Origin: a virus | Strand: one strand, 5' to 3' | IMG/VR virus record: IMGVR_UViG_3300027857_000012 | Location: 1-64,000 of that record | Length of the DNA: 64,000 nucleotides | In this document: piece by piece, positions 2,356-19,578 of the stretch | Numbering within the stretch: the first letter of the stretch is position 1 | How the letters are laid out: every line of letters starts with the position of its first letter | Position numbers and translations under genes: made by a program | The notes under the pieces: model-generated | What the model was told of the DNA's origin: nothing | Seen by the model: the letters and a program-made list of their open reading frames with translations, nothing else | The model's database searches: none

Positions 2356-2643
2356 TCAATGTTCTAGTGTGTCAGAATACCACGTTGGTATTTTTGGATC
2401 TGGCGTGGTGAAGAATGTCTCATTCACCAAGAGCAGATAGACAGTATCATCATCTGTTTCGACTTCGACGAATTGAACAGACGATGCACTAACAGCATCA
2501 TTGAGTTTGGCGATCGTTGTATCATCCATCGCATGCGCTTCAAACGTTTGCCATCCCACAACGCCAGGGAGTGACGTGGCATCACGGAGATCACGAAGGT
2601 GGCTTGGATCAAATGTGGCATGTGCTTGTCCTGTTGTTTCCAC
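2356..2643 (-). CDS. hypothetical protein
   Basis: 95 aa ORF, GAAAGGA RBS before GTG. Confidence 0.65.
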   Translation of the reverse strand: METTGQAHATFDPSHLRDLRDATSLPGVVGWQTFEAHAMDDTTIAKLNDAVSASSVQFVEVETDDDTVYLLLVNETFFTTPDPKIPTWYSDTLEH

Positions 2644-2670
2644 GGATCAATGTCCTTTCAGTGTGCTATT

Positions 2671-3054
2671 TTAACTATGATCAATTTCATGATCGATCGG
2701 CTCGAACATCGTCAGGCGTGTGCGCAGAATACCGACGTACTCATCGAGAAACGCTACAGATACCTCAAACTCGTACATGTCTGCAGATGGAATCAGAATG
2801 CACTGCATCGTGGCGACGCCGGATGATGATTCGTGGTCGGCAGAAACACCAATAAAGAAATCACCAGGTGTGTAGTAGAGGCCAAAAACGCATACATTTG
2901 TTGGGTGCGTTTCCTCATCCACATAATCGCCTCGACGCTCCAGTTCGCACTGGAGTGCTTTGATTTCATCGAGTGTCTGTTCGACATGAGGAAGGAGATC
3001 TGGTTGTCCAGTGTACTCATATGAGAGGATTCGTCCATCGGTAAGTATTGCCAT
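2671..3054 (-). CDS. hypothetical protein (MAILTDGR...)
   Basis: start placed at ATG after GAAAGGAACACACACT leader; downstream of repeat promoter 3094-3122. Confidence 0.75.
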   Translation of the reverse strand: MAILTDGRILSYEYTGQPDLLPHVEQTLDEIKALQCELERRGDYVDEETHPTNVCVFGLYYTPGDFFIGVSADHESSSGVATMQCILIPSADMYEFEVSVAFLDEYVGILRTRLTMFEPIDHEIDHS

Positions 3055-3093
3055 AGTGTGTGTTCCTTTCGTGTAGTTGTATTTTCTATTCTT

Positions 3094-3122
3094 ATTATAA
3101 CTTGTTTTCGTGTGAATGTATA
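3094..3122 (-). promoter_or_regulatory. repeat promoter element 1
   Basis: TATACA-17bp-TATAAT on minus strand; 15 bp hairpin at 3133-3171. Confidence 0.8.
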
Positions 3123-3178
3123 TAGTTTTATCACGAATATGCATGAAATCGAATTATTCATGCATATTCGTCGAGTCT

Positions 3179-3544
3179 TTATGGAAGTGGATTTGACATC
3201 CACGTGAACAATTCGATAAGGAATGGCCCAAACTCTTCACCACGGAGTTCGAGAACATGCTCATACTGTGCACCAGGGCCCTCATCAGATGCTTCTTCGT
3301 ATGCTAGTTCTTCTTCAGTCAAAATGTATGTTCCGCTGTAGAGAGGCATCTCAGATTCACGAATAACACGAATCGTTAGTTTTGTTTCATATGCTTGTTC
3401 ACCGACACGTTTCAGGTAATATCGCGTATTTCGAAATGTGATAAGAGGATAATATTCGGGGCACGTGCCAGAATCAGAAACTTCATCAATGACCTCGTTG
3501 ATGCTTCGAATGAGTTTTTCAGTGTCTTGTGGCGTGATAAACAT
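3179..3544 (-). CDS. hypothetical protein
   Basis: 121 aa, GAAAGGAATCACACG-ATG leader. Confidence 0.75.
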   Translation of the reverse strand: MFITPQDTEKLIRSINEVIDEVSDSGTCPEYYPLITFRNTRYYLKRVGEQAYETKLTIRVIRESEMPLYSGTYILTEEELAYEEASDEGPGAQYEHVLELRGEEFGPFLIELFTWMSNPLP

Positions 3545-3600
3545 CGTGTGATTCCTTTCGGGCCGATTTTTGAGTGAGAATCGGCAAGCTCATTTGTGTG

Positions 3601-3882
3601 CTATTGAGTGAGCTGTTGTACAATTTTTTCAATGAATGGATTTGTGCGCTCGAAATGCATGTGAAGTGTGCCTACAGGATACTCTGTGCCATCTGGCGAC
3701 ATTTCAAATTCTGTTTCACCTTGTGGGCACAAATCGATGTCGACACTTATTTCATCCTCTGCATTCCACAGTGATAATATAGTGTATCGTTTTGGCAGAC
3801 CGCATACTTGTTCAATGTCGACAAATGCTTGCTTGAATTCGAGATTCGCGTTTGCGTGTGCAATTTTGAGTGGTGAAATCAT
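3601..3882 (-). CDS. hypothetical protein
   Basis: 93 aa, GAAAGGATCACACA-ATG leader. Confidence 0.75.
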   Translation of the reverse strand: MISPLKIAHANANLEFKQAFVDIEQVCGLPKRYTILSLWNAEDEISVDIDLCPQGETEFEMSPDGTEYPVGTLHMHFERTNPFIEKIVQQLTQ

Positions 3883-3930
3883 TGTGTGATCCTTTCAAAT
3901 TTTTGAAATTACTTTTGAATTTCTATTAAT

Positions 3931-3959
3931 ATTATAACACAAAACGAGTCAAAAGTACA
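3931..3959 (-). promoter_or_regulatory. repeat promoter element 2
   Basis: TGTACT-17bp-TGtTATAAT on minus strand. Confidence 0.85.
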
Positions 3960-4186
3960 TAGTTTTTACACGAGTTTTCAAGTTCGTGAAGAAATTCGTT
4001 GTTTCTGCATCATTTAAGTGAAATACGTATACTGCACACCAGAACAGCATGCATCCACGAAATGTAAGATTATATGTCCACTTTTCCAGCGCATTCCAAT
4101 ATGTGTTCAGAGGGCACACATTTCGATGTGAAATGAACGAATTTTTATTCATTTTTATATTTTCATCAAAATTCGTGCAAAAAGTA

Positions 4187-4215
4187 TGTACTTTTCCATG
4201 AAAACAAGTTATAAT
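4187..4215 (+). promoter_or_regulatory. repeat promoter element 3 (divergent from element 2)
   Basis: TGTACT-17bp-TATAAT. Confidence 0.85.
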
Positions 4216-4284
4216 AAGTATAGAAATTGAATATACGAATTGAGAACATACTTCCTCAATTCGAAGAAAGAAAAGGAAATAAAA

Positions 4285-4995
4285 ATGACTACTCAGAACA
4301 CGACAACCACACCACGGACAAAGCTCACGACACCTGAGATGAATGCAGTACGCATTATGATGTCAGATCACTATTCAACCATTCACCAGTACGACGACTC
4401 GACGATGCAGATCTTTTATGCAAAACTCGGACATCTCACAGCGATGCTCGATGGCCAGATCCCATTCGAGGGCACTCCGTCTTACACACCACTGCCACAA
4501 CTCGAGGATGTGCCTGGGGAGCGTCTCTTCACACACAAATTTTATGCGAGACGTGATGATATGAGAGCACTCAAGATGGCTTTGCTCGACAACATGTGCC
4601 TCTTGCACATGCCACACACTATGACCACAACAGACCCTGCCATCATCTACTCGAGTGTCCGCAGTTCTGCTGCTGCCGCACTTCGCAGCTATGAAGCGAA
4701 TGCTTCGTTCATGCTGGGATTTAGCCGTCGCGAAGGCAAAGAGGAAGTTTTCCTCGTCAATCCATATCGCAGCACGACATCTGTCGAGACACAAGAGGAG
4801 GAGGCAGAAATGCCTTCCCTCGAAGAGACCATCGACGAAACATCAGACGAAATCGTTGAGCCAGAGACATTCGGAGATGTGCTTGAGAAAGATGACACAG
4901 AGGAGGAAGAGAGCGAAGACGAGTCATCTGTGCAGGAAATCGCACCACTCTACGAAGAAGAGCATGAAGACGATTCAGACCTGAGCGACGTCTAA
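4285..4995 (+). CDS. hypothetical protein with acidic C-terminal tail; paralog of 14555-15148
   Basis: AAAGGA RBS; shares IMxSDH..FYAKLG.L.AM..G.IPFEG.P.Y..LP.L with 14555-15148. Confidence 0.8.
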   Translation: MTTQNTTTTPRTKLTTPEMNAVRIMMSDHYSTIHQYDDSTMQIFYAKLGHLTAMLDGQIPFEGTPSYTPLPQLEDVPGERLFTHKFYARRDDMRALKMALLDNMCLLHMPHTMTTTDPAIIYSSVRSSAAAALRSYEANASFMLGFSRREGKEEVFLVNPYRSTTSVETQEEEAEMPSLEETIDETSDEIVEPETFGDVLEKDDTEEEESEDESSVQEIAPLYEEEHEDDSDLSDV

Positions 4996-5008
4996 GACAC
5001 ATCCAAGA

Positions 5009-5045
5009 GAATCGACCAGTCGAAAGGCTGGTCGATTCTTCTTTG
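5009..5045 (+). terminator. intrinsic terminator
   Basis: GAATCGACCAG/CTGGTCGATTC stem followed by TTCTTT. Confidence 0.75.
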
Positions 5046-5093
5046 CGGGAATCAACGAGTTTTCTTCTTTATTTCAAATTCGTGTTAAAAGTA

Positions 5094-5122
5094 TGTACGT
5101 TCGATGCAAAACAGTGTATAAT
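5094..5122 (+). promoter_or_regulatory. repeat promoter element 4
   Basis: TGTACG-17bp-TATAAT. Confidence 0.85.
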
Positions 5123-5168
5123 CTATTTAGAAGATAATTCAAATGCATCGTTGAAAGGATCACACATC

Positions 5169-5447
5169 ATGACACAAGAAAAAATCGGTCAAGCAGCCCT
5201 TATTCTCGAGCATCTCGCACTGAAGCGAAAAGCACCCCAGTTTCGCGGACTCCCAATCGTCGGGATCAAAGTGAAAGAAGGCACTCAGGATATTCCACAA
5301 GTGTTGCTCGTGTTGTACCATTTATCGTATCTCACCATGCCACCACTTGATCTTGGTGTCTGCTCAACATGGATTAAATTGCACGAAGATGGATGGTTCT
5401 GCATCACCGAATCTGAGCTTCGAAACTTGTACGATCAATTATCATAA
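5169..5447 (+). CDS. hypothetical protein; tandem paralog of 5468-5779
   Basis: GAAAGGATCACAC leader; shared motifs AALI..HL, IKV..G..DI, LDL..C..W. Confidence 0.75.
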   Translation: MTQEKIGQAALILEHLALKRKAPQFRGLPIVGIKVKEGTQDIPQVLLVLYHLSYLTMPPLDLGVCSTWIKLHEDGWFCITESELRNLYDQLS

Positions 5448-5467
5448 ACTTGAAAGGATCTCAGTAC

Positions 5468-5779
5468 ATGACACGAAACGATATTCGAAAAGCTGCTCTT
5501 ATTCAGAAACATCTTTTATCGAACACGATTCCATCACTCATCTATCGTCGTTCGTCGATTCACGAAATAAAAGTGATGCAAGGACACAGAGACATAGAAT
5601 CAGCGTTTCTCGCATGGTGTTATCAAGAAGCGCTGTTTCTCGACAAACTTGATCTAACGAAGTGTACAGTGTGGGTCAGATATCCAAATTATGAAGAAGA
5701 GAAGCATGATTGGATGCTGCTCACACAAGAAGATCTTGACTCTCTTTTCTGTCAACTGCCACATGTGTTCGCAGCATAG
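5468..5779 (+). CDS. hypothetical protein; tandem paralog of 5169-5447
   Basis: GAAAGGATC RBS; same motifs as the upstream gene. Confidence 0.75.
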   Translation: MTRNDIRKAALIQKHLLSNTIPSLIYRRSSIHEIKVMQGHRDIESAFLAWCYQEALFLDKLDLTKCTVWVRYPNYEEEKHDWMLLTQEDLDSLFCQLPHVFAA

Positions 5780-5823
5780 ACTCAACGAATATTCTTGTTC
5801 GATGCGAATTCATCATAAAACAA

Positions 5824-5852
5824 TGTACATTCGCATCGAACTGTGATATAAT
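5824..5852 (+). promoter_or_regulatory. repeat promoter element 5
   Basis: TGTACA-17bp-TGaTATAAT; spacer pairs with 5797-5809. Confidence 0.85.
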
Positions 5853-5896
5853 ATATTTAGATAAAGAAAATGACCATTCGAAAGGAATCACACACT

Positions 5897-6082
5897 ATGG
5901 CAAAACAGAAAAGTCTTTTAAAAACGAAAATGATCGCGCAGACAAAGACACACTACTTTTTGAAAACCGTCCTTATGATTTTCGTGATGCTTTTCGCAGT
6001 TGGGCACATTGTGTTTCAAACGATTGCGAAGGTTCTCGAGACACTGCATGACATCACGAAATCATACTATATGTCACTGTAG
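5897..6082 (+). CDS. small protein with one hydrophobic helix
   Basis: GAAAGGAATCACACACT-ATG leader. Confidence 0.65.
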   Translation: MAKQKSLLKTKMIAQTKTHYFLKTVLMIFVMLFAVGHIVFQTIAKVLETLHDITKSYYMSL

Positions 6083-6091
6083 GAGGATGAT

Positions 6092-6445
6092 ATGTCTGTC
6101 TCAACAACAAAAATTTCATCAATGCCATATCGGAAACTCGCCAATGATCTTTGGGATGCTCGACTTGAATCTGGCAATCCATTGATCCCACTGACCATCG
6201 GAGAGACACAATTCGCTATTGTGTCTGTGTCTCTCGTCATCGTTGGACAAGAAGTCATGCCAGACGCATACGAAACAGATTGGCAACTTTATTATCCGAA
6301 TTCACTGTGTTGGAGAGTGACGTACCTTCCACTCGATGATTGGCAAAGTGATGATGTGCCATCGTATGCGAATCTCGGAATTCTCACATTGCCACATGCA
6401 TCGAAGATTCCATCTTTGTTGCTTGCGTACGTACACGCACAGTAG
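6092..6445 (+). CDS. hypothetical protein
   Basis: 117 aa, AGGAGG RBS. Confidence 0.7.
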   Translation: MSVSTTKISSMPYRKLANDLWDARLESGNPLIPLTIGETQFAIVSVSLVIVGQEVMPDAYETDWQLYYPNSLCWRVTYLPLDDWQSDDVPSYANLGILTLPHASKIPSLLLAYVHAQ

Positions 6446-6499
6446 AGTCAACGAATATTGCTTTACTGTGCAAATAAAGCAATATTCGTGCTAAAACAA

Positions 6500-6528
6500 T
6501 GTACATCTACACGAATACGTGATATAAT
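6500..6528 (+). promoter_or_regulatory. repeat promoter element 6
   Basis: TGTACA-17bp-TGaTATAAT; 15 bp hairpin 6451-6489. Confidence 0.85.
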
Positions 6529-6566
6529 AGAACTAGAAAATACAAATTCGAATAGAGGAGCACACA

Positions 6567-6860
6567 ATGAAAACTGTCAAATCACCACAATTTGAAACCA
6601 TCGAGGATTTCAAGGCACTTGAGGGTGTCATCGCAATCGAGACACATCTCTACAGGATTGGCCCAATCTCATATCCTGCCTTTCTGAAAGCAAAAGAGCA
6701 ACTTGATACTGCTGTCAATGCGCTCAATGCTTGTTTTCTAACGAACAAGCATTTCGAAGCACTCTGCATGGAGTTTCCTTCCTACATGGTTCTCTGCGTC
6801 CGAGATACACGTAAGAATGTCTCGTACTTCGAGAAACTTGAGGAGGTGCCAAATGCCTAA
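6567..6860 (+). CDS. hypothetical protein
   Basis: GAGGAGCACACA-ATG leader. Confidence 0.7.
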   Translation: MKTVKSPQFETIEDFKALEGVIAIETHLYRIGPISYPAFLKAKEQLDTAVNALNACFLTNKHFEALCMEFPSYMVLCVRDTRKNVSYFEKLEEVPNA

Positions 6861-7371: not shown

Positions 7372-7660
7372 TCGAGTCGTCCTTACTCGTCAACAATCCG
7401 TAATTCGGTTCGGGAATCCCTACGGGGATTCCATGAACATGTTTCTTCGAGTCCTCAATGGGCTTTGGCGTGCCAGAAAAGTGATCTGTGCAGAGCGCTA
7501 TCCAGAGGAAACACAAGAACTTGATCGGTGCATTAAAGCGGGCGTCGCATATCTCAGAGAACACGAGATCGCGAGACCATGGGAATTCAATAGTTTCACT
7601 GGATACTCGTTCAAAGATCTCAGTGAGTCAATGTGGGAGGGACACTGGTCGAACTTTTAA
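7364..7660 (+). CDS. hypothetical protein (MPNRVVL...)
   Basis: GAGGT RBS, overlaps upstream stop. Confidence 0.65.
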   Translation: MPNRVVLTRQQSVIRFGNPYGDSMNMFLRVLNGLWRARKVICAERYPEETQELDRCIKAGVAYLREHEIARPWEFNSFTGYSFKDLSESMWEGHWSNF

Positions 7661-7714
7661 AATTACCAATCAAAATGAATTTTCATAAAAGTACATATAT
7701 TCGTGCCAGAAGTA

Positions 7715-7743
7715 TGTACTTTTATACGAAAACATGATATAAT
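7715..7743 (+). promoter_or_regulatory. repeat promoter element 7
   Basis: TGTACT-17bp-TGaTATAAT; 13 bp hairpin 7685-7725. Confidence 0.85.
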
Positions 7744-7782
7744 ATATTTGTAAAGTTCAAATAAATTGAAAGGAAAATCCAA

Positions 7783-8289: not shown

Positions 8290-8338
8290 TTTTTCGAAAG
8301 GCTTTGAGCATGTGCCTTAAACATGCTCAGGAGCAATC

Positions 8339-8827: not shown

Positions 8828-8872
8828 GAGTCAATGAACGTATCGAATGTACATATATTCGTGTTAAAAGTA

Positions 8873-8901
8873 TGTACATTCGATACAAAACAATATATAA
8901 T
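8873..8901 (+). promoter_or_regulatory. repeat promoter element 8
   Basis: TGTACA-17bp-TATAAT; 16 bp hairpin 8840-8886. Confidence 0.85.
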
Positions 8902-8941
8902 TTATTTAGAAGAACAAATACAAATTTGAAAGGACCATTCC

Positions 8942-9589
8942 ATGACAGATTACATTACACCAGAACGCTTTGAAGTTGCTCAAAAAGAATTGAGGCAATT
9001 GTACGAGGAGAAACGCCCACTGCCCATTGTTTACTTCAATCAGCAAAAGCTCCAGTTGCTTAGTTTTTGGCAAAACCCGAGTGAAGATGGGCGGCATGTT
9101 TGGATTTTCGCAACAGCGCCAGAGAGTCCGCTCGTGTTTCAAAGTCCATTGCACGACCGACCTATTGGATACACCGAACATGATCTCACAATGCCGCAAG
9201 ACTACTCGGTACTCGACTGGATTCTGAGTGCCATCTCATATGCGCTCCGTGGCCCAGATCTTGATCTTGTCTGGATCATCGAACAGTACGAAAACATCAA
9301 TGCCGTCTCACTCGAAGGAGAGAACTGGCTTGATCAGATTCAAGACAAGGAGAAAGTTGCAAAGGTTCGTGACATCCTCGCGCACCGAGACCTCTATTCA
9401 ATCGGCAACGTCAGTGATCGAATAATCAAATCTGCAACTGGCCGAGTCGTTCGAAAACACGGAACAATCACTGACGTGATTCGAGCACATGGCGTAACAT
9501 TTGGCTACTTCCAAAGTCATGTCGGAGCCCCAAAACGACTTGCGAAACTTGCTGATGACGATGGATGTTGGTACATCACGATCGAATAG
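8942..9589 (+). CDS. hypothetical protein
   Basis: 215 aa, GAAAGGA RBS. Confidence 0.75.
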   Translation: MTDYITPERFEVAQKELRQLYEEKRPLPIVYFNQQKLQLLSFWQNPSEDGRHVWIFATAPESPLVFQSPLHDRPIGYTEHDLTMPQDYSVLDWILSAISYALRGPDLDLVWIIEQYENINAVSLEGENWLDQIQDKEKVAKVRDILAHRDLYSIGNVSDRIIKSATGRVVRKHGTITDVIRAHGVTFGYFQSHVGAPKRLAKLADDDGCWYITIE

Positions 9590-9634
9590 AGTCAACGAAT
9601 AATCTGAAATCCATTGAATTCGTCATGAAAACTA

Positions 9635-9663
9635 TGTACATTCAATGGATTTCATGATATAAT
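9635..9663 (+). promoter_or_regulatory. repeat promoter element 9
   Basis: TGTACA-17bp-TGaTATAAT; 15 bp hairpin 9605-9654. Confidence 0.85.
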
Positions 9664-9701
9664 ATATTTAGAAAATACAAATTCGAAAGGAAATACCACA
9701 C

Positions 9702-10070: not shown

Positions 10071-10074
10071 ATTA

Positions 10075-10400: not shown

Positions 10401-10501
10401 GTATAAGTAGAATCATCTTCATGAAATCGATAGCATGCAATGTGCTATCGATTGTTGTTTCTACGAATATTTCACAATGCGCCAAATTCACATCAAAATG
10501 A

Positions 10502-10530
10502 TGTACTTTTCCTTCTTTTTATGTTATAAT
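10502..10530 (+). promoter_or_regulatory. repeat promoter element 10
   Basis: TGTACT-17bp-TGtTATAAT; separate upstream hairpin AATCGATAGCA/TGCTATCGATT. Confidence 0.85.
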
Positions 10531-10567
10531 TATCTTAGATAATTCAAATAAAAAGAAGGAAAAGTTG

Positions 10568-11085: not shown

Positions 11086-11132
11086 AAGAATCAACGAATA
11101 ATGATGAAAGTATAATATTCACATCAAAACTA

Positions 11133-11161
11133 TGTATTTTCATCATTATTCGTGATATAAT
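11133..11161 (+). promoter_or_regulatory. repeat promoter element 11
   Basis: TGTATT-17bp-TGaTATAAT; 16 bp hairpin 11094-11153. Confidence 0.8.
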
Positions 11162-11202
11162 CTATTTAGAAATACAAATTCAATACACAAAGGAAAACAC
11201 GT

Positions 11203-12039: not shown

Positions 12040-12202
12040 TTCGTCCACTCCTTCAAGGCTTGATGAAGATGTTCTCAAGCCTATTTTTATGCCCTCTGAA
12101 CACATATTCGAGGACCAAATGAACATGGATGATAGAATATATGTCCATGGCCAGATGATGTCGTTCCAGTTTCAATGCATTTCTTCTTTTGTTCGAAAAT
12201 AA

Positions 12203-12231
12203 TATACTTTTATCAACAATTATGATATAAT
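12203..12231 (+). promoter_or_regulatory. repeat promoter element 12 (degenerate)
   Basis: TATACT-17bp-TGaTATAAT. Confidence 0.7.
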
Positions 12232-12283
12232 TATGTTACGAAATGCAAAATAAATTTCATGTAAATTCAGAAAGGATTATCAA

Positions 12284-12471: not shown

Positions 12472-12642
12472 ATGCTGCTTCTGACACCACTGCTCATCTC
12501 ACAAATGCTTATGGGTCTTGGCGCGATCATTTTTGGTGCACTTGTTGCCGCCATGATGTATGCCTTGTCGAAATCGGCGCATCTCGCGCTCGTGACAGGG
12601 ATTGTTCTTGGAGCACTCGTGCTCTTCATCGTCATCTCATAG
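12472..12642 (+). CDS. 56 aa two-TM membrane protein
   Basis: AGGAG RBS overlapping upstream stop; two hydrophobic helices. Confidence 0.7.
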   Translation: MLLLTPLLISQMLMGLGAIIFGALVAAMMYALSKSAHLALVTGIVLGALVLFIVIS

Positions 12643-12686
12643 ATTCAATGAATATCACGTTCTCACATATATTCGTGCTAAAACAA

Positions 12687-12715
12687 TGTACATTTGTGTG
12701 AGAACGTGATATAAT
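12687..12715 (+). promoter_or_regulatory. repeat promoter element 13
   Basis: TGTACA-17bp-TGaTATAAT; 16 bp hairpin 12652-12712. Confidence 0.85.
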
Positions 12716-12756
12716 ACAACTAGATCGAATAAATACAACATGAAAGAAGAAGATAA

Positions 12757-14058: not shown

Positions 14059-14074
14059 CGGTGTGATTCCTTTC

Positions 14075-14380: not shown

Positions 14381-14422
14381 TGTGGTTTCTCCTTCATATA
14401 TTTTTATTTAACTCTTATTTAT

Positions 14423-14451
14423 ATTATATATTGTTTTGTGTGAAATGTACA
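14423..14451 (-). promoter_or_regulatory. repeat promoter element 14
   Basis: TGTACA-17bp-TATAAT on minus strand. Confidence 0.85.
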
Positions 14452-14554
14452 TAGTTTCAACACGAATATTTATGATTTCGAAATATTCGTTGAAATTCGT
14501 GCACACATCCTCAACACACACATCGAGGAGGATTGCTCCTCCTCGATCGTTTTA

Positions 14555-15148: not shown

Positions 15149-15220
15149 TGTGTGATTCTTCTTTCTTTGTTTGATTTTCGTTTTTTGTTTTTGAAGTTTT
15201 GTTATTCAACTTCTAAGTAT

Positions 15221-15249
15221 ATTATAACATGTTTTATGTGGAAAGTACA
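15221..15249 (-). promoter_or_regulatory. repeat promoter element 15
   Basis: TGTACT-17bp-TGtTATAAT on minus strand. Confidence 0.85.
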
Positions 15250-15397
15250 TACTTTTTACACGAATTTCGATGAATTTGGAAATATGTGGAAAACTCGTCT
15301 TTCACACATAAAAATCATTTTTCACCACAATAAAACTTTTTCTTCACATAAAAGAAGCATCCACACGAATATGGATGCTTGTGTAGTGAAATGTGAA

Positions 15398-15565
15398 CTA
15401 GCATACAAAGTAATATGCTAATAGAAGTGATTTCCGTGTGTGCGAGAGGGTCCAGGGGTGAATGCGTCTTCCAGTTTTCAAGAAGTACAATTGTGCTAAT
15501 TGTGGTTTCGTGTACTCCAGAAGCATTTTTCGAATTTCGGAACGTGTAAACAGTTGAAAGTTCAT
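15398..15565 (-). CDS. small basic protein (MNFQLFTRSEIRKML...)
   Basis: AAGGAGAATCACACA-ATG leader. Confidence 0.65.
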   Translation of the reverse strand: MNFQLFTRSEIRKMLLEYTKPQLAQLYFLKTGRRIHPWTLSHTRKSLLLAYYFVC

Positions 15566-15612
15566 TGTGTGATTCTCCTTCGTGGAAATTTGTATTTTCA
15601 ATTTCTAAGTAT

Positions 15613-15641
15613 ATTATATATTGTTTCTCATCGAAAGTACA
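15613..15641 (-). promoter_or_regulatory. repeat promoter element 16
   Basis: TGTACT-17bp-TATAAT on minus strand. Confidence 0.85.
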
Positions 15642-15659
15642 TACTTTTTATGTGAATTT

Positions 15660-16370
15660 TAATGAATTTGAAATATTCACAGAAACTCGTCGTTCACATG
15701 TAAAAGTGATTTTTTAACATGATGAAACATTTTCTTATATGTGTGATGAACATCGTTTCCATAGTGAAAAATAAAACATATAATTTCGTGAAGAAAACAT
15801 TCTTCACCACACATATAAATAATTTTTATACACGTGTCCATTGTCACACATACATATGAAATTATTTCTTTCACATGATAAACACGTTTTTCAATGTGTT
15901 AATGAGAATGTTTTACACATATAAAATCTTCATTTCGTATATATGAAGAAAACATTCCATACATATGAATAAATCATTTTACAACATGAAATTGATGAAA
16001 CACACATATTTCACACACACATGAGAAGGCATTTCTGGCACGTGTGTGCTTTTGTGAAAAATCGATGTGAGCGTTTTCATGTCATTCTCGTGTACGAATG
16101 GTGTGCTCGATGTGAAAATGTGACCTGTGTCGCTGGAGGAAAAGATGTATAATCTATCATCTCACACATTCCACATTCGATCGTGTGTGTCGTATGTGAA
16201 GAGAATATATGTGTGTACACGTGTGTGATGAACATAAAAATCGATGTGACATCTCACATGAAATAAAATTTCATTTTCATATGTGTAAAAGATTCGTTTA
16301 TCATGTGTGTAAGTACATCATTCACACACGTATATAAAGGTATAAAAACGAATTTCTTCACATACGAAAT
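15660..16370. repeat. AT-rich non-coding region with degenerate repeats between divergent promoters
   Basis: TGTGTGATGAACAT x2, TGAAGAAAACATTC x2, AAAAATCGATGTGA x2, many CACAT/ATGTG words; no credible ORF. Confidence 0.7.
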
Positions 16371-16386
16371 ATTCGTGAAAAAACTA

Positions 16387-16415
16387 TGTACATTCCACAC
16401 GTTTCATGTTATAAT
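16387..16415 (+). promoter_or_regulatory. repeat promoter element 17
   Basis: TGTACA-17bp-TGtTATAAT. Confidence 0.85.
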
Positions 16416-16466
16416 AGATATAGAAGTTCAATACAAATGATTCACATGAAAAGGAGAATATCACAC

Positions 16467-16682
16467 ATGCAAAATCGAGATTCAAAACGTTCAAAAATCC
16501 CACAAGCATACAAAGACATATGTAACGAAATTAATCGCATTGAGCACATTCTCGATCACTCTTGTGGTGAGTTTCGTTTGTATGCTATTAACAAGCAATT
16601 GAAAGCATCTATCCCCAGTGCATACAAACTCATATTACGAGGTTCATACCATCATGGTCATTACAAACTCGAGTATGCATAA
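16467..16682 (+). CDS. small basic hypothetical protein
   Basis: AAAGGAGAATATCACAC-ATG leader. Confidence 0.7.
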   Translation: MQNRDSKRSKIPQAYKDICNEINRIEHILDHSCGEFRLYAINKQLKASIPSAYKLILRGSYHHGHYKLEYA

Positions 16683-16690
16683 GCATACAT

Positions 16691-16732
16691 CATAAAAATG
16701 CATTAGTATTTTCGTACTAATGCATTTTTATG
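16691..16732 (+). terminator. 18 bp perfect hairpin, likely terminator
   Basis: CATAAAAATGCATTAGTA-ttttcg-TACTAATGCATTTTTATG. Confidence 0.7.
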
Positions 16733-16786
16733 TAAAAACGAATTTTACGAATATTTGAGAATTAATGAAAATTCACATAAAAAGTA

Positions 16787-16815
16787 TGTACTTTCTCATC
16801 GAAACAGTATATAAT
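16787..16815 (+). promoter_or_regulatory. repeat promoter element 18
   Basis: TGTACT-17bp-TATAAT. Confidence 0.85.
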
Positions 16816-16872
16816 ATATTTAGAAATTAAAAATTAATTTCACAAAACAAAAACGAAAGTGAGAATCACACA

Positions 16873-17064
16873 ATGTCACAAACAACCATCGTTGAAACAC
16901 TCATTCAATTGAAAACAACCATTCATTATCGTAACACACACAAGAATGATATGGATGTTACACCATTCGAACAGTGCATTTTTCAAATCGTGATGGTCTT
17001 GAATGCCTGGGGAGTGTACGTGTACATCACATGTGGTGCATCCTGGAATGTGGTCGAAGCATAA
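16873..17064 (+). CDS. hypothetical protein
   Basis: GAGAATCACACA-ATG leader; hairpin GTGGAGAGG/CCTCTCCAC after the stop. Confidence 0.65.
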   Translation: MSQTTIVETLIQLKTTIHYRNTHKNDMDVTPFEQCIFQIVMVLNAWGVYVYITCGASWNVVEA

Positions 17065-17202
17065 ACGAAAATAGTGGAGAGGTTTCCCTCTCCACACACG
17101 AGAGGGCATTTGAGATGTTTCTCATTCAGCGCATAAGCAAGCATCATGCACATACGAATTTTACGAATATTTCAGAATACATGAAAATTCGTGAAGAAAC
17201 TA

Positions 17203-17231
17203 TGTACATTTGATGAAAAACATGTTATAAT
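17203..17231 (+). promoter_or_regulatory. repeat promoter element 19
   Basis: TGTACA-17bp-TGtTATAAT. Confidence 0.85.
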
Positions 17232-17283
17232 ATATTTAGAAGTTCAATAAGAAACTTCAAAAAACAAAATCACACAAGGAGAA

Positions 17284-17466
17284 ATGACAATGATTTTCAC
17301 GTACACACCCTCAGCACTGAAGAAAATGAACAAAACAGAACTATGCACCATTCTTCGAAGTCGTCTTTTCGCATCAGGGTACACACCAAAAGTACGATTG
17401 TTCAAACTCTCTGACATCACACCTGCCAACTTCACGAAAACGGAATTGCTCGATTTTCTTTCATAG
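17284..17466 (+). CDS. small basic protein, possible helix-extension-helix (Rho-N/SAP-like) nucleic-acid binder
   Basis: LKKMNKTEL..IL....FTKTELLDFL pattern; AAGGAG RBS. Confidence 0.55.
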   Translation: MTMIFTYTPSALKKMNKTELCTILRSRLFASGYTPKVRLFKLSDITPANFTKTELLDFLS

Positions 17467-17571
17467 CACCAGCACATTCTGGAATGTGGAGAATGCCATC
17501 CACATTCCAATACACGAATACACAAGTTTCAACGAATATTTTCAAATTCGTGCAAATTCACACAAAAACTA

Positions 17572-17600
17572 TGTACATTTCACACGAAACAGTGTATAAT
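17572..17600 (+). promoter_or_regulatory. repeat promoter element 20
   Basis: TGTACA-17bp-TATAAT; upstream hairpin TGGAATGTGGA/TCCACATTCCA. Confidence 0.85.
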
Positions 17601-17645
17601 AGTCTTAGAAGTTAAATATCAAATGCAAATCGAAAGGAATCACAC

Positions 17646-17990
17646 ATGAACCACAAACACGTTTTCCGCATCACCACAACCGAACTCGTACATGAATTGA
17701 ATGCACTCTTGAAAGAAGTGAAGCAAGCATCTCAACAGCGTCCAGACATCACTCTGACACACGAGGATTTGTCATTCAAACTCTATGGTCTCACATATAC
17801 CCCACGCCATTTCACACAGAGTGCACTTGACGATGATCTTGTCTGCTTTGAAGTGCAACAATCGCGGACACGCACCATTCACACATTCGACATTCTCGAG
17901 CAACATGAAGACGGTGAAACGACATCCTTCGCTCGTTCATACCTGCTCACACTGAGAATGTTCTGTCAAGAGCATGCAACAAATCAATAA
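17646..17990 (+). CDS. hypothetical protein
   Basis: GAAAGGAATCACAC-ATG leader. Confidence 0.75.
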   Translation: MNHKHVFRITTTELVHELNALLKEVKQASQQRPDITLTHEDLSFKLYGLTYTPRHFTQSALDDDLVCFEVQQSRTRTIHTFDILEQHEDGETTSFARSYLLTLRMFCQEHATNQ

Positions 17991-18098
17991 GCAAGCACAT
18001 CATTCATTCATCGAAACGAAGCATTCGTGCTTCGTTTCTTCGTGTGTATACGAGTTTTTCATATATGTGCAAATTCACATAAATTCACATCAAAACTA

Positions 18099-18127
18099 TG
18101 TACATTTGCATAAAAACGTGATATAAT
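18099..18127 (+). promoter_or_regulatory. repeat promoter element 21
   Basis: TGTACA-17bp-TGaTATAAT; upstream hairpin GAAACGAAGCA/TGCTTCGTTTC. Confidence 0.85.
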
Positions 18128-18170
18128 ATATTTAAGAAAATAAAAATTCAAACATAAAGGAAAATCCAAA

Positions 18171-18431
18171 ATGCAAGCATACATCGATCACCAAAAAATC
18201 TACACCAAAAAGCCAAGCAACAAATTATTTTCCCATCTCATCGTCCGGGGCACACTCAATGACCTTCACGCATTTGCAGCAAAAATTCATGTAGGCAAGC
18301 ATTTCTTTCATGCAACACCCTACCCACACTATGACATTAGCAGCACACATTTCCAAAATGCACTCAATGCATCTGCAACACTTATCACCACGCGCCAACT
18401 CATTCTTATTGCAAAAGCCAATGTGCAATAA
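18171..18431 (+). CDS. DUF4031-like protein
   Basis: YID...SHL...L.DLHAFAAKI...F...PHYDI...AL..A..IT.RQL pattern characteristic of DUF4031. Confidence 0.7.
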   Translation: MQAYIDHQKIYTKKPSNKLFSHLIVRGTLNDLHAFAAKIHVGKHFFHATPYPHYDISSTHFQNALNASATLITTRQLILIAKANVQ

Positions 18432-18487
18432 CACAACACTGCAGCGCACACTCAAATGCGCTGCACATATCAAAAGGAGAATCACAC

Positions 18488-18778
18488 ATGAGCACACCGA
18501 AAGCAAGCATCATCACGACACTCGTTTTTCTCGTCCTCTTATTCGCAAGCATGCTGAATTCGATACGTCAGCAAGCGTATTCAATCGATGCATGGAAACA
18601 GGTTGTACACTTTCACGGTGATGTCTGTGTCGTCGCTGTGAATGCGCATAATATGCCCTATTGCAGCAATGGTGTTCGATACACTCTTAATGCTGTTAAG
18701 GCGCAAGAAGCATACCTGATTTGGGATGCATGCGAAGAATATGACGACGCGGCCATCTGCACGTTACAATACGATTAA
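18488..18778 (+). CDS. small exported or membrane-anchored protein
   Basis: AAAGGAGAATCACAC-ATG leader; N-terminal hydrophobic segment, 4 Cys. Confidence 0.7.
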   Translation: MSTPKASIITTLVFLVLLFASMLNSIRQQAYSIDAWKQVVHFHGDVCVVAVNAHNMPYCSNGVRYTLNAVKAQEAYLIWDACEEYDDAAICTLQYD

Positions 18779-18839
18779 TGCTTACCTCAACGAATATTCA
18801 CGAATTCGTATAAACTCGTGAATATTCGTGTAAAAACAA

Positions 18840-18868
18840 TGTACTTTCACACAAAAACAGTATATAAT
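18840..18868 (+). promoter_or_regulatory. repeat promoter element 22
   Basis: TGTACT-17bp-TATAAT; 14 bp hairpin 18790-18829. Confidence 0.85.
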
Positions 18869-18909
18869 TATCTTAGAAATTGAAAATACAAATTCGAAAG
18901 GAACACACA

Positions 18910-19185
18910 ATGCTCAAACAATTGCAAAAACTCGCAACACTTGAACGCACATTCAACATCACCATGGATACGTGGAGCAAAGCACATCTTTCGCCTGATG
19001 GATTTCCTCAAACACCCACTCTTGACATTGCAGGCATCACTTATGGTTGCTCAACGCTCGTCTGCTCTTCTCGAGCGACCAATACATACACGCTTATCCT
19101 TTTCAATGAGGACACTGGAAAGTGGATCGAGGTTCCAACAACCGAGGCATATGCTATTGCATTCATGCAACAACACACACTCTAA
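18910..19185 (+). CDS. hypothetical protein
   Basis: GAAAGGAACACACA-ATG leader. Confidence 0.75.
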   Translation: MLKQLQKLATLERTFNITMDTWSKAHLSPDGFPQTPTLDIAGITYGCSTLVCSSRATNTYTLILFNEDTGKWIEVPTTEAYAIAFMQQHTL

Positions 19186-19242
19186 TACATTCTCAGGGGT
19201 GAATAGCATTATTCACCCCATATCTCGAAAGGAATCACACAC

Positions 19243-19578
19243 ATGCCAACATTCAATCTCTACTACACAACACCCTCTGGCGTCCACGTCTACAATCGTC
19301 GCTCGTTCTCGTCACTCGAGGATGCGCAGCACCTCATTCGAGCACTGTGCCGCTTAAAGAACGTCTGGTCTATTGCCCTTCTCAACCCCTTCACAGGCGA
19401 GGTCTGCCTCACATGGACACTCTACCTCACAGACGACATCGAGGAGGTGACCAACGAAATTTTGATGTCGAGTGAGCCTGCTAATATCGTCTACATGGAA
19501 CAGGCCTCTGAATGCACACCCGAAACTGGCCGATGGCAAGCACAGTGCTGTCCACACTTTGCGCCTCCACTCTTCTAA
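19243..19578 (+). CDS. hypothetical protein
   Basis: GAAAGGAATCACACAC-ATG leader after hairpin GGGGTGAATA/TATTCACCCC. Confidence 0.7.
   Translation: MPTFNLYYTTPSGVHVYNRRSFSSLEDAQHLIRALCRLKNVWSIALLNPFTGEVCLTWTLYLTDDIEEVTNEILMSSEPANIVYMEQASECTPETGRWQAQCCPHFAPPLF

What the first reader, a model, noticed from the sequence alone, without database searches (positions are those of the whole stretch)
2356..19578. Cassette array: 22 copies of a ~120 bp promoter-RBS element, each heading 1-3 small genes of unknown function
Seen in sequence: 22 elements share the layout TCAACGAATA-variable-ATTCGTG/ATTCACA-nnAAAA[CG][AT]A-TGTACW-exactly 17 bp-TATAAT-nnnTTAGAA-...-AAAGGA-n-CACACA-ATG (a few have TATACW or TGTATT at -35). 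In at least 7 copies the left end sits within a few nt of the previous gene's stop codon (5777, 6443, 8825, 9587, 11083, 12640, and 3179 on minus), giving sharp cassette boundaries. Established: T4-type phages such as RB49 have PeSL promoter-stem-loop cassettes that shuffle early genes, and integron attC sites also abut cassette stops. Inference: this is a modular host-takeover/anti-defence gene library in which the repeat both expresses and recombines cassettes. No recombinase is visible in this window.
Basis: partly seen in the sequence, partly recalled or inferred. Interest (0 to 1): 0.9.

Follow-up and report, generated by a model that had tools for sequence, protein, structure and literature searches.

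The report
Phage early-gene promoter-hairpin cassette array
A 17-kb stretch of an uncultured soil phage is built from 22 copies of one ~120-base control unit (upstream motif array, promoter, leader, ribosome site), each driving one to three small genes of unknown function; this design is already known from T4-type and SPO1-type phages, but here it has an unusual promoter and hairpins woven into the promoter itself.

Summary
22 composite elements lie at 2356-19578: TGTACW-N17-TATAAT gives 26 window matches against 0.43 expected, and feature counts are. They head 38-39 small ORFs, of which 1 of 38 has a Pfam family, 2 have a PHROG match at E<=0.01 and none has a PADLOC match.

The window is the first 64 kb of a 134-kb phage record. 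The core promoter is used genome-wide. Array copies add four motif sites locked to a 10-bp phase upstream, a TAGA start region, an unstructured A-rich leader and a strong ribosome site.

Copy-specific perfect hairpins sit exactly where a co-directional gene ends at the element: 9 of 9 tight junctions against 0 of 13 others. This repeats in relatives, 10 of 21 against 1 of 29. They look like transcript-end hairpins interleaved with the next promoter.

A profile of the 22 copies finds 40 more near-full-length copies in six related sequences. Yet only 4 of 52 ORFs of one relative's array match this genome. Elements are mosaic, with breaks at the left arm and at the ATG.

Verdict: a PeSL-like, SPO1-like hyperplastic early module, a new variant of a known kind. 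The scan noted similar arrays before in coliphages. Transcription, recombination and gene function are all untested.

The parts
2356..19578 (.). Whole array: 22 transcription units and 38-39 small ORFs. Blocks by direction: 2 units on minus (3122-, 3959-), 11 on plus (4187+ to 12687+), 3 on minus (14451- to 15641-), 6 on plus (16387+ to 18840+).
3055..3177 (-). Element e3122 (TATACA -35), heading ORFs 2671-3054 and 2356-2643. Tight junction with the stop of 3179-3544. 15-nt perfect upstream hairpin at -49..-35 / -25..-11.
   Evidence: (64.3 bits)
3883..3999 (-). Element e3959, heading ORFs 3601-3882 and 3179-3544. Divergent from e4187. No long inverted repeat.
   Evidence: (61.0 bits)
4137..4284 (+). 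Element e4187 with a 69-nt leader, heading ORF 4285-4995 (236 aa, acidic tail; paralogue of 14555-15148).
   Evidence: 62.9 bits
5008..5039 (+). Separate short-loop hairpin (12-nt perfect arms, dG -22) followed by TTCTTTG, between the stop of 4285-4995 and e5094. Terminator-like.
5049..5168 (+). Element e5094 (TGTACG -35), heading the tandem paralogues 5169-5447 and 5468-5779.
   Evidence: 62.8 bits
5779..5896 (+). Element e5824, heading 5897-6082 and 6092-6445. The stop TAG overlaps GACTC. 13-nt perfect arms flank the -35 (-27..-15 / +5..+17).
6445..6566 (+). Element e6500, heading 6567-6860, 6853-7371 and 7364-7660. 15-nt perfect upstream hairpin.
7675..7782 (+). Element e7715, heading 7783-8289 and 8339-8827. 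13-nt inverted repeat that includes the -35 (-30..-18 / -2..+10).
8828..8941 (+). Element e8873, heading 8942-9589. 16-nt inverted repeat that includes the -35.
9589..9701 (+). Element e9635, heading 9702-10070, 10075-10302 and (doubtful, 33 aa) 10299-10400. 15-nt arms flank the -35.
10425..10453 (+). Separate terminator-like hairpin upstream of e10502 (13 pairs, then GTTGTTTCT).
10463..10567 (+). Element e10502, heading 10568-10798 and 10810-11085. The latter has a homologue in L134.
11088..11202 (+). Element e11133 (TGTATT -35), heading 11203-11616, 11662-12039 (homologue in L134) and 12020-12202. The 16-nt left arm pairs with the spacer.
12195..12283 (+). Degenerate element e12203 (TATACT -35, no arms; the upstream ORF ends at the -35), heading two small hydrophobic ORFs 12284-12463 and 12472-12642.
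   Evidence: (36.5 bits)
12642..12756 (+). Element e12687, heading 12757-13011. 16-nt arms flank the -35 and reach into the -10.
14381..14500 (-). Element e14451, heading 14075-14380 and 13843-14058.
   Evidence: 67.6 bits
14522..14547 (.). Two-way terminator-like hairpin (11 pairs, 6 G-C) between the end of 14555-15148 and e14451.
15149..15298 (-). Element e15249 with a 72-nt leader, heading 14555-15148 (197 aa). This gene family is shared with L132 and G001.
15355..15380 (-). Terminator-like hairpin after ORF 15398-15565 and before e15249.
15566..15690 (-). Element e15641, heading 15398-15565. Divergent from e16387 across about 700 bp of non-coding DNA.
16348..16466 (+). Element e16387, heading 16467-16682 (homologue in G001, 44% identity).
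16691..16732 (+). Separate 18-nt perfect hairpin (dG -21.6) between the stop of 16467-16682 and e16787.
16738..16872 (+). Element e16787, heading 16873-17064.
17154..17283 (+). Element e17203 (best profile score, 76.2 bits), heading 17284-17466.
17480..17509 (+). Separate 11-nt perfect hairpin upstream of e17572.
17529..17645 (+). Element e17572, heading 17646-17990.
18013..18038 (+). Separate 11-nt perfect hairpin upstream of e18099.
18050..18170 (+). Element e18099, heading 18171-18431 (DUF4031, the only Pfam family in the array) and 18488-18778.
18787..18909 (+). Element e18840, heading 18910-19185 and 19243-19578. 14-nt perfect upstream hairpin.

Best explanation
The region is the hyperplastic early-gene module of an uncultured ~134-kb soil phage. 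It consists of 22 self-contained expression cassettes.

Each cassette starts with a ~105-130-nt composite element, made of six parts:
1. A left boundary that often takes in the previous gene's stop codon (TA-GANTC-AAYGAAT).
2. An upstream module of up to four short motifs: two forward YGARTWT at -49 and -39, and two inverted AWAYTCR at -28 and -18 from the -35 box. They are 10 bp apart, so all lie on one face of the double helix, and an A-tract follows. This most likely docks RNA polymerase alpha subunits or a regulator, or bends the DNA.
3. The phage's general promoter, TGTACW-N17-TATAAT, often with a TGn extended -10. It is presumably read by host RNA polymerase, since no phage sigma factor was found.
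4. A conserved TAGA start region.
5. An unstructured A-rich leader.
6. A strong Shine-Dalgarno site and the ATG.

Wherever a co-directional gene ends at an element there is also a hairpin of copy-specific sequence. Where the junction is tight it is built from the free positions of the element itself (the variable upstream core and the 17-bp spacer), so that it encloses or abuts the next promoter's -35. Where there is room it is a separate short-loop hairpin. These hairpins most likely act in the RNA of the upstream unit, as terminator, insulator or 3'-end stabiliser.

The 20-60-bp identical patches shared by elements are likely substrates for homologous recombination by the phage's own RecA and RuvC. 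That would explain why relatives keep the element but carry almost entirely different genes.

Shown: the anatomy, the statistics, the conservation and the mosaicism. Inferred: early timing, promoter activity, hairpin function, the recombination mechanism and what the genes do.
For: Promoter reading. There are 26 matches against 0.43 expected. 37 of the 97 TATAAT hexamers in the genome have TGTAC[AT] exactly 17 bp upstream, and the only four TTGACA-type matches lie on the minus strand where the called genes are on plus. Apart from one 1-mismatch site at 21770, just upstream of the terminase gene, no TGTACW promoter lies between 21.8 and 58 kb, the block with terminase and tail genes. No sigma-70 domain scores above its cut-off.

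Upstream module acts on double-stranded DNA. Across 113 promoter sites in 7 sequences, left-type motifs start at -49/-48 (29 times) and -39/-38 (40 times), and right-type motifs at -28 (12) and -19/-18 (51), with few elsewhere (11 left-type and 17 right-type). The A/G variant on the left does not covary with the T/C variant on the right (Fisher p = 1.0).

Hairpins.
- Own-upstream to own-spacer perfect pairing of 11 nt or more occurs in 14 of 113 sites, against 1 of 2802 permuted partners.
- 9 of 9 tight junctions carry an in-element inverted repeat of 13 nt or more, against 0 of 13 others (p = 2e-6). 6 of 8 loose co-directional junctions carry a separate short-loop repeat of 10 nt or more. The 4 elements with a divergent neighbour have none of 10 nt or more.
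- An annotation-free repeat of the test on relatives gives 10 of 21 against 1 of 29 (p = 2.8e-4).
- Mismatches in the stems favour sense-strand G-T (17) over A-C (6).

Leaders are unstructured: 3 of 22 have dG of -3 or lower in the first 30 nt.

Family and turnover.
- Profile R1 finds near-full-length hits of 40 bits or more in G001 (18), L132 (10), L140 (5), L133 (3), L134 (2) and L157 (2).
- Structural proteins of G000 and G001 are 33-80% identical. Only 4 of 52 G001 array ORFs hit the complete G000, and one of those is an ORF overlapping an element. 3 of 39 G000 array ORFs hit G001.
- The homologues of G000 10810 and 11662 are in the opposite order in L134, with different neighbours.
- In G001, 23416+ and 35273- share 62 identical nt that start at the left arm. 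L140 2478+ matches G001 36210- up to the ATG, with unrelated ORFs beyond, while its upstream half matches 35273-.

Recombination genes elsewhere in the genome: RecA at 67552-68574, RuvC, and a Xer-like recombinase at 100032-101024.
Against: - No transcript data exist: no RNA run holds this DNA. Promoter activity, early timing and termination are therefore unproven.
- TGTACW is not a canonical -35 box, the host is unknown, and a literature search for this promoter found nothing relevant.
- Most in-element hairpins have 9-29-nt loops and are not followed by a clean T-run. The upstream type is followed by an A-tract, so they are not textbook intrinsic terminators.
- The generic terminator scan is only modestly above chance: 21 found against 13.6 +/- 4.2 expected.
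- An energy-based hairpin scan barely separates junctions from coding controls: mean -12.8 against -11.1 kcal/mol.
- A first replication on relatives with crude gene calls was not significant: 3 of 7 against 4 of 23, p = 0.31.
- Within this genome the longest exact stretch shared by two elements is only 28 nt.
- No deletion or circle joints were seen, but only contigs of one probable source run were available.
- G000 and G001 are distant enough that some small proteins may have diverged beyond BLAST detection rather than been replaced. The two genes detectably shared with G001 keep their order relative to the terminase gene.
Confidence: 0.65

Rival explanations
1. The repeats are nothing more than strong promoters kept alike by selection for expression. 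Cassette turnover among relatives comes from ordinary illegitimate recombination, horizontal acquisition and fast divergence of small genes. The elements play no part as recombination sites.
For: The same core promoter heads non-array genes throughout the genome. Exact identity between elements within this genome is short, at most 28 nt. No joints were seen. The two genes detectably shared with G001 keep their order relative to the terminase gene. Small early proteins can diverge beyond BLAST detection at this distance.
Against: Unrelated ORFs are joined to nearly identical leaders, with identity ending exactly at the ATG. Elements are patchworks of other elements, with up to 62 identical nt in G001. 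Selection on function alone does not predict segment-wise best matches to different copies.
Confidence: 0.2
2. The conserved upstream arms are mainly an operator or enhancer for a sequence-specific DNA-binding protein, of the host or of the phage. That protein switches the whole early class on or off together. This is compatible with the main explanation and differs only in emphasis.
For: Four sites sit in strict 10-bp register relative to the promoter, in a forward-forward-reverse-reverse layout, with no pairing covariation. The arms distinguish array promoters from the other promoter class, which shares the same -35 and -10 boxes but has T-rich spacers. The motifs are conserved in every relative.
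Against: No known operator fits. By recall, the LexA, Spo0A, CodY, DnaA and CRP consensus sites differ in half-site or spacing. The Rex site TTGTGAA-W4-TTCACAA (abstract of PMC2883068) shares the TGTGAA/TTCACA variant half-site but not the spacing. No candidate regulator was identified. ORF 375-1175 has only a weak helix-turn-helix hit of 15.5 bits, below the cut-off.
Confidence: 0.3
3. The hairpins act in DNA rather than in RNA, as cruciforms or folded single strands. They would serve replication or recombination, for example as folded recombination sites.
For: The arms are perfect, and in the upstream type a conserved base (ACGAAT/ATTCGT) carries a variable core. The genome encodes a tyrosine recombinase, RecA and RuvC.
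Against: The hairpins occur only at co-directional gene ends and not at divergent junctions, which points to transcripts. Loops of 19-29 nt are unfavourable for cruciform extrusion (general knowledge). Mismatches favour sense-strand G-T over A-C, 17 to 6.
Confidence: 0.1
4. The array is an integron-like system. The arms are attC-like sites, and the phage's tyrosine recombinase inserts and excises cassettes.
For: Conserved arms around a variable palindromic core abut cassette stop codons. A tyrosine recombinase gene lies at 100032-101024, and a weak copy of the element (22.7 bits) with the same TAA-GAGTCAATGAAT junction follows its stop codon.
Against: The recombinase is Xer-like and far below every curated cut-off. 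The integron-integrase model gives 54.8 bits against 265 and matches only the last ~50 profile positions. Every cassette has its own promoter. The arm positions are tied to the promoter's helical phase. 13 of the 22 elements have no long in-element palindrome.
Confidence: 0.04

Closest known systems
PeSL (promoter-early stem-loop) cassettes of T4-type phages RB49/phi1, PST/T4 and nt-1/KVP40 (Arbiol et al. 2010, PMC2839356, passages read; Comeau et al. 2014, PMC4122927, abstract and outline read)
   Same: [quoted passage not shown] Both combine a sigma-70-like early promoter, an AT-rich stretch before the -35 and a stem-loop. Both are packed into hyperplastic regions full of ORFans, and relatives differ in cassette content.
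   Different: There is no sequence relation. The -35 box here is TGTACW, not a sigma-70-like -35 such as TTGACA. The stems are copy-specific and AT-rich rather than the GGGG...CCCC type. In tight junctions the stem-loop is interleaved with the promoter, its arms flanking or including the -35. There is an extra phase-locked four-site motif array. The phage is not close to any cultured phage: the best terminase match is 38.5% identical. Terminator activity, recombination breakpoints and mini-circles, all shown for PeSLs, are untested here.
Host-takeover module of Bacillus phage SPO1 (26 genes in a 12.4-kb terminal region; passages of PMC6873191; Stewart et al. 1998 cited there, not read)
   Same: Both are a 12-17-kb block of some 25-40 small early genes in many short operons, each with promoters and ribosome sites typical of highly expressed genes, in a phage of ~130-kb size. 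Most products have unknown function.
   Different: No homology to characterised phage proteins was detected: only 2 of 38 ORFs match any PHROG family, neither annotated. No terminal redundancy is evident: the record has no end repeats, and a contig of run X1 reads through the window's start. The promoters are non-canonical. Host shut-off activity is untested.
PeSL-like promoter-hairpin arrays noted earlier by this scan in phAPEC8-like and phi92-like coliphages (AI notes, not checked here)
   Same: Each has about 15-26 near-identical promoter / hairpin / ribosome-site modules driving tiny unknown genes, with relatives differing by swaps at the modules.
   Different: There the hairpin is a GC stem at the predicted 5' end of the mRNA. 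Here 19 of 22 leaders are unstructured and the hairpins lie upstream, at the end of the previous unit. The host, promoter type and element sequence are all different.
Integron attC sites with the IntI integrase (features recalled from general knowledge)
   Same: Imperfect palindromes with conserved outer boxes and a variable core, abutting cassette ends.
   Different: There is no IntI-type integrase. The cassettes are self-promoted. The arms are locked to the promoter phase without pairing covariation.

Membership tests
PeSL-type composite promoter/stem-loop cassettes | Repeated intergenic motif containing a sigma-70-like early promoter | tested here: met
   22 copies with TATAAT in 22 of 22 and TGTAC[AT] 17 bp upstream in 18 of 22. 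The -35 box is non-canonical. Activity was not assayed.
PeSL-type composite promoter/stem-loop cassettes | [quoted passage not shown] | tested here: met
   An A-tract lies directly before the -35 in 21 of 22, along with phased A/T-rich motifs.
PeSL-type composite promoter/stem-loop cassettes | Adjacent stem-loop placed to stop transcription coming from upstream | tested here: met
   Sequence level only. 9 of 9 tight junctions have in-element repeats of 13 nt or more, 6 of 8 loose co-directional junctions have separate hairpins, and the 4 divergent junctions have none. Relatives give 10 of 21 against 1 of 29.
PeSL-type composite promoter/stem-loop cassettes | The stem-loop is an effective transcription terminator | not testable with these tools
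   No RNA data. Most in-element hairpins lack a T-run.
PeSL-type composite promoter/stem-loop cassettes | Lies in a hyperplastic region rich in ORFans | tested here: met
   1 of 38 ORFs has a Pfam family, 2 of 38 match a PHROG, and 4 of 52 ORFs of the relative's array hit this genome.
PeSL-type composite promoter/stem-loop cassettes | Indels or replacements between close relatives have breakpoints in the motif | tested here: inconclusive
   The only close pair, G001 and G003, is identical over the overlap. Distant relatives show mosaic elements and identity that ends at the ATG or the left arm.
PeSL-type composite promoter/stem-loop cassettes | Cassette mini-circles form by recombination between flanking motifs | not testable with these tools
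   Only contigs of one run could be laid, and they show no joints.
PeSL-type composite promoter/stem-loop cassettes | T4-type phage with a GGGG...CCCC-type conserved stem | tested here: not met
   The stems are copy-specific and AT-rich. No megablast match to any deposited phage. Best terminase identity is 38.5%.
SPO1-type host-takeover module | Cluster of small genes in many short operons with strong promoters and ribosome sites | tested here: met
   22 units with 38-39 ORFs, 22 of 22 with a Shine-Dalgarno-like motif.
SPO1-type host-takeover module | Located in the terminal redundancy | tested here: inconclusive
   The record has no end repeats. The X1 contig runs through window position 6 from about 60 kb upstream. 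A collapsed repeat cannot be excluded.
SPO1-type host-takeover module | Products shut off host processes | not testable with these tools
   The one protein family tested (14555-15148) gave no informative family, fold or Atlas match.
Integron | IntI-type integrase | tested here: not met
   TIGR02249 scores 54.8 bits against a cut-off of 265, and only its last ~50 profile positions match. The best model is XerC at 98 bits against 335.
Integron | Promoterless cassettes expressed from one common promoter | tested here: not met
   Each cassette has its own promoter-like element.

The most novel reading that the evidence does not exclude
The conserved arms with copy-specific palindromic cores are folded-DNA recombination sites, attC-like, used by the phage's Xer-like tyrosine recombinase. 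Its own stop codon is followed by a weak copy of the element with the same left-boundary junction. On this reading the array is a phage 'integron' whose cassettes each bring their own promoter.
Probability: 0.04. Interest if true: 0.9.

Novelty: new variant of a known kind. Interest (0 to 1): 0.5.

Why it matters
It extends the promoter-plus-hairpin cassette design, known from T4-type phages and seen by this scan in large coliphages, to an uncultured soil phage lineage with no close cultured relative. That suggests the layout is a recurrent, convergent solution for keeping a fast-changing library of early genes expressible.

Three features are unusual and testable:
- a highly conserved non-canonical -35 box, TGTACW, shared by several unrelated metagenomic phages;
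- a four-site motif array locked to the helical phase of the promoter;
- transcript-end hairpins built out of the free positions of the next promoter, a very compact way to insulate neighbouring units.

The 38-39 orphan genes, and the more than 50 different ones in the relative's array, are a natural pool in which to screen for host-takeover or counter-defence functions once a host is known.

Tried and rejected
Searches that gave nothing useful
- Megablast of 2000-20000 against deposited phages: no match.
- First element pattern in viral contigs: 0 hits.
- Genome-contig scan: 16 single matches, none with the arms and several inside coding sequence, so no host was identified.
- Terminase tblastn: best 38.5% identity, to phages of assorted hosts.
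- The search for related loci with the terminase: one 5.6-kb contig with too little flank.
- The phage NOS against solved structures is about equally distant from bacterial and mammalian enzymes, so it gives no host clue.

Sequencing runs
- No RNA holder is listed. One DNA run, probably the source, was laid as contigs and showed no joints.

Cassette proteins
- The Atlas gave no usable hit for the 14555 family.
- The AlphaFold model (pLDDT 70) has no PDB match at E <= 0.001.
- PADLOC: 0 of 38. Rfam: 0 matches in 1-22000.
- The search for homologous proteins for 14555-15148 found only itself and one protein 81% identical on a 1.9-kb contig, whose context could not be fetched.

Readings considered and dropped
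- The arms as a base-paired hairpin: no covariation. Only 3 of 22 fold strongly, at z of about -4 or lower, as an upstream hairpin.
- GANTC as a methylation or restriction signal: 8 of 22 elements have GANTC 5' of the left arm, but GANTC is not enriched genome-wide, 528 against 502 expected.
- 5' leader hairpins as a general feature: 3 of 22.
- Known operators (LexA, Spo0A, CodY, DnaA, CRP by recall; Rex from the abstract of PMC2883068): half-site or spacing does not fit.
- A phage sigma factor: none above the cut-off.
- A canonical TTGACA promoter set: none.

Weak or negative controls
- Energy-based hairpin scan against coding windows: -12.8 against -11.1.
- Replication with crude gene calls: p = 0.31. 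That script kept only the 30 sites that passed its left- and right-motif filter and so dropped several elements. The annotation-free version replaced it.
- One search examined 21 of the 22 array elements, because one failed its ribosome-site filter.

Supplementary files of papers were not requested.

Full report
What the window is. The window is bases 1-64000 of a 134,001-bp virus record (G000) that CheckV rates as complete and that has no end repeats. It encodes a terminase at 21783-23468, a tail tape-measure-type protein and a DnaG-type primase. Beyond the window it encodes DNA polymerase III alpha, RecA, RuvC, a tyrosine recombinase and a nitric-oxide synthase. It has no megablast match among 50,697 deposited phage records, and its terminase is at most 38.5% identical to any of them. 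One public DNA run holds it, a soil metagenome that is probably its source. A contig of that run reads straight through the window's first bases from about 60 kb upstream, so the record's start is arbitrary.

The observation. TGTACW-N17-TATAAT with up to one mismatch occurs 26 times in the window against 0.43 expected, and 22 of these lie in 2356-19578. Anchored on the -35 box, the 22 copies share much more than a promoter:
- a left arm A[CT]GA[AG][TC] at -39/-40 (16 copies) and/or -49/-50 (10 copies);
- a right arm ATTC[GA][TC]N at -17..-11 (20 copies);
- an A-tract directly before the -35 (21 copies);
- TATAAT (22 copies), with a TGn extended -10 in 13;
- TAGA four to five bases after the -10 (18 copies);
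- an A-rich leader of 37-72 nt, a Shine-Dalgarno-like motif (22 copies) and often CACA before the ATG (13 copies).
In eight copies the boundary reads GANTC-[AG]A[CT]GA[AG][TC], and in four of them (5824, 6500, 9635, 12687) its first G is the last base of the previous gene's TAG stop codon. One copy, 12203, is degenerate: the upstream ORF runs up to its -35 and it has no arms. The elements head 38-39 small ORFs in units of one to three.

The promoter is the phage's general one. The exact core pattern occurs 37 times in the genome and never in the reversed control. 37 of the 97 TATAAT hexamers have TGTAC[AT] exactly 17 bp upstream. The only four TTGACA-type matches lie on the minus strand where the called genes are on plus. 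Apart from one 1-mismatch site at 21770, just upstream of the terminase gene, no such promoter lies between 21.8 and 58 kb, the block with terminase and tail genes. No sigma-70 domain scores above its cut-off. I therefore infer that host RNA polymerase reads these sites and that they are early or middle promoters. This is inference, because no RNA data exist.
A second promoter class elsewhere in the genome shares both hexamers but has T-rich spacers and lacks the arms and the TAGA. Other metagenomic phages (L030, G005) also use TGTACA-N17-TATAAT without the arms, which suggests a host-type signal. A full-text search for this promoter found nothing relevant. The TGn extended -10 and the AAAGGAG-type ribosome sites recall Gram-positive hosts, but that is recall, not a test. 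The genome-contig scan gave only chance-like single hits.

Two separate upstream features. First, the conserved arms are not a base-paired stem. Over 113 promoter sites in seven sequences, forward motifs (YGARTHT) start almost only at -49/-48 (29) and -39/-38 (40), and inverted motifs (ADAYTCR) at -28 (12) and -19/-18 (51). That makes four positions one helical turn apart. The A/G variant on the left shows no covariation with the T/C variant on the right (Fisher p = 1.0). A fixed helical register relative to the promoter points to a function on double-stranded DNA: alpha-subunit docking, bending, or a regulator. No known operator fits (and recall).
Second, many copies carry long perfect inverted repeats of copy-specific sequence. 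They come in three layouts: an upstream hairpin (3122, 6500, 18840); arms that flank the -35, one in the variable upstream core and one in the 17-bp spacer (5824, 9635, 11133, 12687); and arms that include the -35 (7715, 8873). Pairing of a copy's own upstream region with its own spacer over 11 nt or more occurs in 14 of 113 sites, against 1 of 2802 when partners are permuted.

What the hairpins track. All nine junctions where a co-directional ORF stops within 15 nt of the left arm have an in-element repeat of 13 nt or more. None of the other 13 does (p = 2e-6). Six of the eight co-directional junctions with 54-99 nt of room instead have a separate short-loop repeat of 10 nt or more, and several are followed by T-rich runs. 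The four elements whose upstream neighbour is divergent have no repeat of 10 nt or more.
A first replication on relatives with crude gene calls was not significant (p = 0.31). An annotation-free version counted open frames of 50 codons or more that end within -68..-5 of the -35. It gave 10 of 21 against 1 of 29 in the relatives (p = 2.8e-4) and 9 of 13 against 0 of 8 in this array. Stem mismatches favour sense-strand G-T (17) over A-C (6).
Taken together, the hairpins belong to the end of the upstream transcript. Where space is short they are assembled from the unconstrained positions of the next promoter. Whether they terminate, insulate or protect a 3' end is open. Most lack a T-run, their loops are 9-29 nt, and an energy scan hardly separates them from coding controls. 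Unlike the coliphage arrays noted earlier by this scan, the leaders here are unstructured in 19 of 22 copies.

Relatives. Pattern scans found a 40.9-kb viral contig (G001, CheckV 31% complete) with 30 exact core promoters. A second contig (G003) is the same phage, 99.992% identical over 26,615 nt without gaps. Several metagenome contigs followed (L132, L133/L134, L140, L157). A sequence profile built from the 22 window copies finds near-full-length hits of 40 bits or more in G001 (18), L132 (10), L140 (5), L133 (3), L134 (2) and L157 (2). These scores match those of the training copies.
G000 and G001 share structural proteins at 33-80% identity and have the array on the same side of the terminase gene. 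Even so, only 4 of 52 ORFs called in the G001 array hit the complete G000 in six frames, one of them an ORF overlapping an element. Only 3 of 39 G000 array ORFs hit G001. A few cassette genes recur: the 14555/4285 family in L132 and G001, 16467 in G001, and 10810 and 11662 in L134. The last two are in swapped order and have different operon partners.
Elements are mosaics. In G001, 23416+ and 35273- are identical for 62 nt starting at the left arm and unrelated before it. L140 2478+ matches G001 36210- from the -35 to the ATG, with unrelated ORFs after it, while its upstream half matches 35273-. Within G000 the longest shared exact stretch is 28 nt. This is what recombination between elements would leave. 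It is not proof, and part of the gene difference may be divergence beyond detection.

The genes. 1 of 38 ORFs has a Pfam family (DUF4031, 18171-18431), 2 match unannotated PHROGs and none matches PADLOC. Paralogues are few: 5169/5468 and 4285/14555. A model of the 14555 family (pLDDT 70) has no convincing structural match, and the Atlas gave nothing usable. 'Host takeover or anti-defence' therefore rests only on analogy with SPO1, where a 26-gene, 12.4-kb early module of small, highly expressed genes shuts down host processes (PMC6873191, passages), and with the T4-type hyperplastic regions.

Comparison with known systems. The closest concept is the PeSL of T4-type phages. That is a composite of a strong sigma-70-like early promoter, an AT-rich upstream stretch and a stem-loop terminator. 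It is repeated between ORFans in hyperplastic regions and was shown to mediate indels and mini-circles (PMC2839356, passages; PMC4122927, abstract). The present array works like that design at the sequence level, but it is unrelated in sequence and sits in an unrelated phage. It also has a different -35 box, an added phase-locked motif array, and hairpins interleaved with the promoter. The integron reading fails its membership tests. The scan has already noted PeSL-like arrays in several coliphages, so the kind is known. I class this one as a new variant.

Limits. No transcript data, no host and no close relative with indels were available. The gene calls are my own heuristics. Statements about UP elements, extended -10 boxes, cruciform energetics and named operators are recalled knowledge, not tool results.

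Noticed in passing
window 15680-16340: About 700 bp of AT-rich non-coding DNA lies between the divergent elements e15641 and e16387. It is dense in TTCACA/TGTGAA- and CACACA/TGTGTG-type short repeats and long imperfect inverted repeats. It could be an origin, a packaging region or a protein-binding region.
   Followed up: partly
window 13000-13850: This is the convergence zone between the plus-strand block and the minus-strand block. It has no convincing ORFs (only Cys-rich, odd translations) and terminator-like hairpins at 13503-13531 (+) and 13782-13811 (-).
   Followed up: no
window 12284-12642: Two adjacent very hydrophobic small ORFs (59 and 56 aa) sit behind the degenerate element e12203. 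They may be membrane peptides.
   Followed up: no
window 375-1175: A 266-aa ORF behind promoter 271+ is conserved in G001 at 44% identity. It has a weak helix-turn-helix-like hit (Sigma70_r4, 15.5 bits, below the cut-off). It is a possible DNA-binding protein next to the array.
   Followed up: partly
G000 120901-122091 (outside the window): A complete nitric-oxide synthase oxygenase domain is encoded by the phage (PF02898, E = 1.7e-162). It is about equally distant from bacterial and mammalian enzymes in the PDB.
   Followed up: partly
G000 100032-101024, 67552-68574 (outside the window): A Xer-like tyrosine recombinase and a RecA homologue are encoded here, and a RuvC domain is also present somewhere in the genome. 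The recombinase's stop codon is followed by the same TAA-GAGTCAATGAAT junction as the array elements.
   Followed up: partly
G000 82-107 kb (outside the window): A second promoter class shares TGTACT-N17-TATAAT but has T-rich spacers ending in TTTGTGA. It lacks the arms and the TAGA. It may be a different temporal class read by the same polymerase.
   Followed up: partly
L030; G005 (other viral contigs): Unrelated metagenomic phages also use TGTACA-N17-TATAAT promoters without the arms. This suggests a host group whose main promoter has this -35 box.
   Followed up: no
window 8-element subset (5049, 5779, 6445, 8828, 9589, 11088, 12642, 3177-): GANTC with a variable middle base lies directly 5' of the left arm at -45/-46 or -55. 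In four copies it overlaps the last base of the previous gene's TAG stop codon. GANTC is not enriched genome-wide.
   Followed up: partly
window 1-6 and G000 end: A contig of the only run holding this DNA continues for about 60 kb upstream of window position 6. The record's start is therefore arbitrary, and the array is contiguous with the 114-134 kb region, which also has element-like promoters.
   Followed up: partly
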